Shown here one piece after another: positions 23,345 through 24,144 of a stretch of 64,000 nt of DNA. The DNA is from Octopus vulgaris (lineage: Eukaryota), in the NCBI GenBank assembly GCA_951406725.2, contig OX597830.1, positions 21,018,001 to 21,082,000 on the forward strand, in the 5' to 3' direction. Both the position numbers and the translations under genes were made by a program. Below the pieces are notes generated by a model. It saw nothing but the letters and a program-made list of their open reading frames with translations. It did no database searches and had not been told where the DNA came from. Within the stretch, counting starts at the first letter, position 1; the number at the start of each line of letters is the position of its first letter.

Positions 23345-24144
23345 TACAAAGTTGACTTGAGCAGAATCTGAACCCAGATCATAAAGATGGATGAAATAGC
23401 ATTAAGCATATTTTGCCCTGTACTCTAATGGTTCTACCAGCTTGGTGCCTGGTCCCTACTTATAGTAATCCTTTCTACTAAAGGCACAAAGGCTGAAATT
23501 TCTGGGGAGGGGACTGATACTTAATTTATCGACCCCAAAAGGATGAAAGGCAAAGTCAACCTTGGTGGAATTTGAACTCAGAATATAGCGACAGGCAAAA
23601 TACCGTCAAGCATCTCGTCCAATGTGCTAACGATTCTGCCAGCTTGTTGCCTGGTCCCTTATAATAATGGCTTCAAATTTTTGCCACAAGGGCAGCCATT
23701 TTGGGGGAAGGGATCTGTCAATTACATTGACCCCAGTGTTTCACTGGTACTTAATTTATTGACCCCAAAAGGATGAAAGGCAAAGTTAACCTCAGTGGAA
23801 TTTGAACTCAGAACGTAGCGGCAGATGAAATACCGCTAAGCATTTTGTTCAGCGTCCTAACAATTCTACCAGTTCGCTGCCTGGTCCCTACTTACAAAAA
23901 TGGCATCAAATTTTGGTAGCACAGAGCCAGCAATTTTTGAGGGGAGGTGGAAGTAAATTATATTGACTACCCGCAGTACGTGACTGGTACATGTTTCATC
24001 AAAACCAAAAAAAAAAGACAAAAGGCAAAGTTGACCTCGGCAGAATTTGAACCCAGAATGAAAAAGACAGACAAAACGCTGCTGAGCATTTTGTCCAGTG
24101 TGCCAACAACAATCCTGGCAGAGCACCATCTTGTCCCTACTCAC
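23345..24144 (-). mobile_element. Head-to-tail array of four family B SINEs separated by a repeated target sequence
   Basis: Each unit ends (plus strand) in ...GCCT/ATCT followed by GGTCCCTACTTA-like sequence at 23451, 23653, 23883 and 24132. Confidence 0.85.

What the first reader, a model, noticed from the sequence alone, without database searches (positions are those of the whole stretch)
23345..24144. Repeat-spacer-like SINE array built by re-using one target site
Seen: four co-oriented family B SINEs, each followed on the plus strand by nearly the same non-SINE sequence: GGTCCCTACTTAT (23451), GGTCCCTTAT (23653), GGTCCCTACTTAC (23883) and TGTCCCTACTCAC (24132). The units have different tail variants and divergence levels, which argues against simple tandem duplication. 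Inference: each insertion duplicated the target and the next SINE landed in the regenerated site. This would make a chronological record of SINE subfamilies, loosely analogous to spacer acquisition.
Basis: partly seen in the sequence, partly recalled or inferred. Interest (0 to 1): 0.7.

Follow-up and report, generated by a model that had tools for sequence, protein, structure and literature searches.

The report
Four SINEs stacked at one target
Four copies of a very common short jumping repeat sit head to tail, each preceded by the same 16-base piece of local DNA, likely because separate insertions kept re-using one landing site; the two oldest-looking copies are at the ends, so the stack is not an ordered time record, and this kind of re-use is already known from mammals, flies and clams.

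Summary
Observation confirmed. On the minus strand, four co-oriented SINE copies (U4-U3-U2-U1) each have the same ~16-nt sequence directly before the head. Junction plus head occurs nowhere else in the 2.8-Gb genome, and 16-17 nt is the family's commonest target-site duplication. Three readable tails belong to three genome-wide variants, and the units share no rare mutations, whereas two true tandem duplicates elsewhere do. Serial insertion at a regenerated target is therefore the best reading. AU tests could not reject unit monophyly. The 'chronological record' fails: divergence runs old-young-young-old (Fisher p=0.017), so later copies landed in the middle. No fifth junction copy exists. The identical 5' boundary likely comes from the new cDNA pairing with the older head (inferred). 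Head-to-tail stacking is routine for this family (127 same-strand vs 9 opposite neighbours), and five other non-duplicate same-junction arrays were seen. Target-site triplication and TSD-(SINE-TSD)n arrays are published. The scan earlier found this family nesting at internal sites, not this flank-target form. No function is indicated.

The parts
24132..24147 (-). Junction copy T4 (outermost, 5' flank of the array in SINE sense); most diverged copy
23899..24130 (-). U4: full-length SINE, old (19/109 non-CpG changes; end branch 0.36), tail with the commoner class III alleles (IIIa)
23883..23898 (-). Junction copy T3
   Evidence: bridged by contigs of organisms B and E (records 24 and 16)
23669..23881 (-). 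U3: full-length SINE, younger (9/111; end branch 0.13), tail of variant IIIb (413 exact copies of that tail motif in the genome)
23653..23668 (-). Junction copy T2, with a 3-nt deletion
   Evidence: covered by a contig of organism B (record 19)
23467..23651 (-). U2: SINE with an internal deletion, younger (11/111; end branch 0.11), tail of variant IIb (668 exact copies of that tail motif)
23451..23466 (-). Junction copy T1
   Evidence: covered by a contig of organism F (record 9)
23345..23449 (-). U1, 5' part: old SINE (13/76), model positions 1-100
23218..23344 (+). 5'-truncated fragment of another abundant SINE family, inserted antisense into U1
   Evidence: loose ends at 23217 and 23344
23176..23217 (-). 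Likely remainder of the U1 core; no family tail and no junction copy follow it
   Evidence: (family D9); assignment to U1 is inferred

Best explanation
Four SINE copies of at least three tail variants stand head to tail behind copies of one locus-specific 16-nt sequence, likely because separate LINE-driven insertions re-cut the same target next to an existing SINE head. Inferred steps: (1) an old SINE (U1) sat behind a unique flank starting with ATT; (2) the (ATT)n-type 3' end of a new SINE RNA primed reverse transcription at a nick at the start of that flank; (3) the cDNA 5' end was joined by pairing with, or ending exactly at, the older head, so the duplication always stops at the head boundary; (4) U4 came in that way, then U3 and U2 entered at the inner junction, in an order not resolved. 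The array is a passive insertion hot spot with no sign of function, and position does not encode age.
For: Shown: junction+head is locus-unique. The junction abuts the head as solo TSDs do; solo TSD mode is 16-17 nt (17 of 36 clean TSDs among 167 copies examined), and class II/III TSDs mostly start with A/T-rich, tail-like bases. The tails are genome-wide variants (413 and 668 exact matches). U2 falls in a IIb group (95/85*) on the other side of a 100/99* branch from U3 and U4. At two linked tail sites U3 has C,G (3 of 57 sampled class III copies) and U4 has G,C (32 of 57). Shared-rare-mutation test: the six focal pairs rank 13/149 to 47/67, while two true duplicates rank 0/161 and 0/163. Ages are old-young-young-old. 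For homology-set boundaries: two solo insertions share the same span with p about 0.11 and 17 different leader strings occur, yet 5 of 6 matched junction pairs sit at offset 0, three of them non-duplicates. In L006 a young class I copy sits upstream of an older class II copy, with about 50 nt duplicated that end inside the old head. Pairing of cDNA with upstream target is proposed for R1/R2 (PMC2718515, passages).
Against: AU tests do not reject U2+U3+U4 (p=0.142), U2+U3 (0.40) or U3+U4 (0.65; that constrained tree scored higher than the free search), and the bootstrap had not settled. U3 and U2 are mildly alike in the body (9/224 and 16/253). U3 and U4 share five common tail changes (5/57 and 12/57). 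U1's tail is lost, so U1/U4 as an ancient duplicate is not excluded. Head mutations shared between neighbours are only common CpG-type changes, so head pairing is not shown at this locus. Family-wide, the younger copy is more often downstream (24 vs 11, p=0.04), the opposite side from step 3. A retained-old-head test on the internal-site class was negative (p=0.16). No empty or shorter orthologous allele was seen (inconclusive).
Confidence: 0.72

Rival explanations
1. Serial insertion with no homology step: the LINE enzyme simply made the same two nicks again because TSD length is fairly narrow, and new copies entered the downstream TSD. This is a variant of step 3 of the best explanation.
For: TSD length peaks at 16-17 nt. 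Younger copies lie downstream more often (24 vs 11). With several hundred thousand copies, rare repeats of geometry will occur. Weber 2006 raised 'the very same break twice' (PMC1687206, passages).
Against: It needs a junction copy after the last unit: none after U1, L105 or L006 (best 9/14 and 8/14). Three repeats at p about 0.11 each give about 0.001. Offset junctions should outnumber exact ones, but were 1 of 6.
Confidence: 0.1
2. Local duplication of junction+SINE by unequal exchange between TSDs, followed by gene conversion of bodies and tails from dispersed subfamily copies.
For: Such duplicates exist in this genome (L096, L101) and explain exact boundaries for free. The route is invoked for clam TSD1-(SINE-TSD1)n arrays (PMC11481361, section 15 and passages). 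The AU tests do not reject monophyly.
Against: It needs at least two near-complete conversions that leave no private shared change. True duplicates have a third junction copy (12/14) and shared rare changes; the focal array has neither. The inner and outer units differ in age.
Confidence: 0.13
3. A polar, time-ordered array that adds units at one end, like CRISPR spacer acquisition, possibly through a site-specific element.
For: The repeat-unit-repeat architecture. Earlier scan notes describe site-specific stacking elsewhere in this SINE family (not tested here).
Against: Both outer units are about twice as diverged as both inner ones. The target is unique to one locus and other arrays use unrelated junctions, so no specific target sequence exists.
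Confidence: 0.05

Closest known systems
Target site triplication by consecutive retroposition (snoRNA retroposon + SINE; Weber 2006, PMC1687206, passages seen). For Alu: Lee et al. 2015, seen only as a title in a reference list; text not held.
   Same: Different non-autonomous retroposons in tandem, separated and preceded by copies of one target site, read as consecutive insertions at a common site.
   Different: Four units and four target copies rather than two and three; no terminal copy after the last unit; all units are variants of one SINE family, which allows head-to-head pairing; A/T-triplet tails rather than poly(A).
TSD1-(SINE-TSD1)n arrays of the blood clam (Martelossi et al. 2024, PMC11481361; abstract, section 15 and passages read)
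   Same: Same architecture in a mollusc: co-oriented SINEs separated by the same TSD.
   Different: Clam units are highly similar, truncated at the same place, and ascribed to unequal recombination. The units here are 61-83% alike over the core and carry different tails. L096 and L101 in this genome fit the clam type.
Double insertion of TEs at a preserved target (McGurk and Barbash 2018, PMC5932611; passages)
   Same: An insertion keeps its target and makes a new one, so later copies land there and the junction holds the TSD.
   Different: Described for P, hobo, jockey and R1, mostly as dimers or as arrays later expanded by unequal exchange. Here each added unit appears to be a new insertion and the target has no genome-wide consensus.
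CRISPR spacer acquisition (recalled, no call)
   Same: Only the outward pattern: a repeat is regenerated at each addition.
   Different: Addition here is not polar, no dedicated integrase or leader is evident, and the units are SINE copies with no known use.

Membership tests
tRNA-type SINE | Short, highly repeated, dispersed element | tested here: met
   431 core hits in 1.864 Mb; units about 190-235 nt
tRNA-type SINE | Flanking target-site duplications | tested here: met
   36 clean TSDs among 167 head-intact, tail-classed copies, 9-19 nt
tRNA-type SINE | tRNA-derived head with A and B boxes | tested here: inconclusive
   An A-box pattern matched but a strict B-box pattern did not; no tRNA match by Rfam on the array or on a young copy or by ARAGORN
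tRNA-type SINE | No coding capacity | tested here: met
   No stop-to-stop frame of 120 aa or more overlaps 21309-24281
tRNA-type SINE | 3' end shared with a partner LINE | not tested
   No LINE search was run for the class II/III tails
Target-site triplication / double insertion | The same target copy before and between the elements | tested here: met
   Four copies, each abutting a head
Target-site triplication / double insertion | Elements of independent origin | tested here: inconclusive
   Different tail variants and no rare shared changes, but AU tests do not reject monophyly and U1 has no tail
Target-site triplication / double insertion | Terminal target copy after the last element (n+1 copies) | tested here: not met
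   No fifth copy within 4 mismatches of the 16-mer in 21000-23450; U1's 3' end is lost, so it may have been deleted
Target-site triplication / double insertion | Empty or shorter orthologous site | tested here: inconclusive
   5 of 24 listed runs were laid; junctions are present in organisms B, E and F; the joint tables were swamped by paralogues
TSD1-(SINE-TSD1)n duplication arrays (clam type) | Highly similar units truncated at the same place | tested here: not met
   Core identities 61/98 to 115/139, different tails, no rare shared changes
CRISPR-like chronological array | Polar addition, so age rises along the array | tested here: not met
   19/109, 9/111, 11/111, 13/76; outer vs inner p=0.017
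CRISPR-like chronological array | Transcription and processing of the array for a function | not tested

The most novel reading that the evidence does not exclude
In this very high-copy SINE family, any resident copy turns its own 5' flank into a re-usable landing pad: the new cDNA end pairs with the resident head, so each insertion regenerates an exactly bounded target. This would build thousands of mixed-subfamily arrays without a site-specific endonuclease or unequal exchange, a homology-guided route to tandem retroposon arrays that I did not find in the searches made.
Probability: 0.4. Interest if true: 0.45.

Novelty: new member of a known kind. Interest (0 to 1): 0.25.

Why it matters
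If right, it shows how a SINE at several hundred thousand copies becomes its own main target and builds mixed arrays that can seed satellites. It also offers a natural test of how the 5' end of a non-LTR insertion is joined, a poorly understood step. In practice, TSD-(SINE-TSD)n arrays should not be assumed to be duplications: both routes occur in this genome and can be told apart by rare shared mutations. It gives no ordered fossil record and no sign of host function.

Tried and rejected
Subfamily-leader idea: rejected. Word enrichment of the motif alone: not significant. Polar order: rejected. AU tests of unit monophyly: inconclusive (89 rows, of which 3 focal; U1 left out as partial, and only head-intact class II/III copies with score >=95 plus 30 of 60 pattern-selected loci were used). 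Retained-old-head test on class I copies stacked at core position ~49: negative (head divergence 0.103 vs 0.088, p=0.16; 15 of 19 keep the class I base). That class appears to be a separate phenomenon. Read laying: 5 of 24 runs. Over the whole array, 140,000-290,000 mostly paralogous records per run hid low-depth joints (2192 joints not shown), and the listed skips have high depth and short sides and were treated as paralogue artefacts. No joint appeared on the 111-nt stretch. No empty site was shown or excluded. Rfam and ARAGORN found nothing meaningful. The last 600 kb of sample added 100 copies and 6 head-intact pairs but no new same-junction array, which lowers the genome-wide estimate. 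The span figure came from a hand-copied list and is replaced. Papers searched for passages without useful result: PMC10702118, PMC3272032, PMC9599045, PMC13141329, PMC4758252. Lee et al. 2015 could not be read, and may already describe mixed-subfamily cases. No supplements were read.

Full report
Setting. The window is G000:C17:21018001-21082000 in a 2.8-Gb genome. It is rich in microsatellites, and no frame of 120 aa or more overlaps the array. The repeat families look like those of octopus; that label is recalled and echoed by earlier scan notes, not tested by a call of mine.

What is there. Read on the minus strand, the region is T4-U4-T3-U3-T2-U2-T1-U1. T is a ~16-nt sequence directly 5' of each SINE head; T2 has lost 3 nt and T4 is the most diverged. 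U1 is interrupted at 23345 by an antisense fragment of another SINE family. A likely remainder of its core follows at 23176-23217, with no tail and no further T. The T word by itself is not enriched in the window (4 matches vs 4.3 expected). Its position is: neighbouring junctions match at 14, 12 and 12 of 16, against 0.45% of random flank pairs at 12 or more. Junction+head is unique to the locus (2 of 2 and 3 of 3 genome matches), so T is local DNA and not a subfamily leader.

T behaves as a TSD. I sampled 180 stretches of 10 kb plus the window (1.864 Mb; 20 stretches flank the window, 160 are spread over 24 contigs) and found 431 copies, about 231 per Mb. By extrapolation that is roughly 650,000 in the genome. 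Of 167 head-intact, tail-classed copies, 36 have a clean non-microsatellite TSD of 9-19 nt, 17 of them 16-17 nt, ending 0-4 nt before the head. T has this length and position, and begins with the ATT-like bases that match the class II/III tails.

Independent units or duplicates? The tails of U3 and U2 are genome-wide variants (413 and 668 exact matches). U4 has the commoner class III alleles at two linked sites (G,C in 32 of 57 sampled copies; U3 has C,G, seen in 3 of 57), though an insertion in U4 lies near the second site. In an 89-row tree U2 groups with IIb copies (95/85*), across a 100/99* branch from U3 and U4, and no unit's nearest rows include another unit. All non-consensus states shared by unit pairs are CpG decay or common variants. 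The six pairs rank from 13/149 to 47/67 against matched random copies, while two real duplicates in the sample, L096 and L101, rank 0/161 and 0/163, so the test has power. Against this: AU tests did not reject the units as a clade (p=0.142 for U2+U3+U4, 0.40 for U2+U3, 0.65 for U3+U4), U2 and U3 bodies are mildly alike (9/224, 16/253), and a duplication soon after insertion leaves no private marks. Unequal exchange alone copies an existing tail, so three tail types need at least three donors (inference).

Order. Non-CpG differences from the family core are 19/109 (U4), 9/111 (U3), 11/111 (U2) and 13/76 (U1); outer vs inner gives Fisher p=0.017. End branches are 0.36, 0.13 and 0.11. The younger copies are in the middle, so position does not record time. 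The U2/U3 order is unresolved.

How common. Neighbours within 160 nt are co-oriented 127 times and opposed 9 times. In the first 331 copies there were 42 pairs, 19 triples, 4 chains of four and 3 of five. Most head-to-tail junctions are (ATT)n microsatellite: of 54 head-intact pairs, 17 had non-microsatellite flanks and 7 of those matched at 11 of 16 or better, 3 being the focal pairs. Seven other same-junction arrays were examined, picked by eye from that list. Two are duplicates (L096, L101) and five are not (L006, L009 with three units, L105, L053, L182); some of these junctions are A/T-rich and weak. Three of the seven lie within 100 kb of the window, L182 was pattern-selected, and the last 600 kb added none. 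One to two per Mb, or a few thousand in the genome, is a rough estimate.

Mechanism of the exact boundary (inferred). Two solo insertions share the same span with p about 0.11, and the bases between TSD and head take 17 forms. Four identical boundaries therefore want an explanation. Of 20 pairs with a non-microsatellite upstream flank, 6 had a match of 11/14 or better, 5 at offset 0 and 1 at -3; three of the five are non-duplicates (U3/U2 and U2/U1 missed this ungapped test because of the T2 deletion). L105 and L006, like the focal array, lack a terminal copy. In L006 a young class I copy lies upstream of an older class II copy and about 50 nt are duplicated, ending inside the old head at a short shared word. 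This fits a nick upstream of a resident head, with the cDNA end pairing to that head, as proposed for R1/R2 5' junctions (PMC2718515, passages). The numbers are small. Head mutations shared at the focal locus are only common ones, and family-wide the younger copy is more often downstream (24 vs 11). I put the homology step near even odds and serial insertion of either kind at about 0.8.

Other species. Contigs from coded organisms cover T3 (B and E), T2 (B) and T1 (F, about 90% alike), so those junctions predate these splits. No shorter allele was seen, but the tables were swamped by paralogues.

Known or new. Consecutive retroposition at one site with target-site triplication is described in mammals (PMC1687206, passages; Alu paper seen as a title only). 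Double insertion is described in Drosophila (PMC5932611, passages), and TSD1-(SINE-TSD1)n arrays of similar units in a clam (PMC11481361, section 15). Searches gave no report of four-unit mixed-subfamily arrays or of head pairing as their cause; the library lacks most subscription papers and no supplements were read. Earlier scan notes cover this family's nesting at internal sites; none was near this locus or held all the words of a target-site-triplication query. Verdict: a real structure, most likely built by serial re-use of one target, of a known kind, with no ordered record and no sign of function. Interest 0.25.

Noticed in passing
L091:1111, L101:3799, L076:3095 and others: In 40 of 104 co-oriented pairs the downstream copy starts at core position 43-51, and in 36 of these the upstream copy is class I, whose tail ends in a word matching that position. 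This is self-nesting at an internal site, already noted by the scan.
   Followed up: partly
L006:650-1300 (minus strand): A young class I copy sits upstream of an older class II copy with about 50 nt duplicated, ending inside the old head; the clearest case for homology-set 5' joining.
   Followed up: partly
L096:4580-5250 (+) and L101:5532-5873 (-): True tandem duplicates of junction+SINE with a third junction copy and shared rare mutations; clam-type arrays.
   Followed up: yes
L009:5550-6350 (+): Three class III copies share an A/T-rich junction and no rare mutations; the closest analogue of the focal array.
   Followed up: partly
window 46400-47363 (-), 5984-6480 (+), 51681-52100 (+), 21574-21816 (-): Four more co-oriented clusters of the same family in this window, joined by (ATT)n tails or nested inside one another.
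   Followed up: partly
L160 (central copy): A copy inserted just downstream of an older copy's tail with its own clean TSD: the downstream mode of stacking.
   Followed up: no
L126-L185: Body variants recur across different tail classes, so the family is mosaic and tails and bodies seem to exchange.
   Followed up: no
window 23120-23152 (-): End of a third, older repeat family (9 fuzzy matches in 1.26 Mb) follows the U1 remainder; U1's tail may have been deleted up to it.
   Followed up: partly
window 15166-15364, 18908-19237, 30715-30923: Short high-identity tandem repeats with periods 63, 149 and 112.
   Followed up: no
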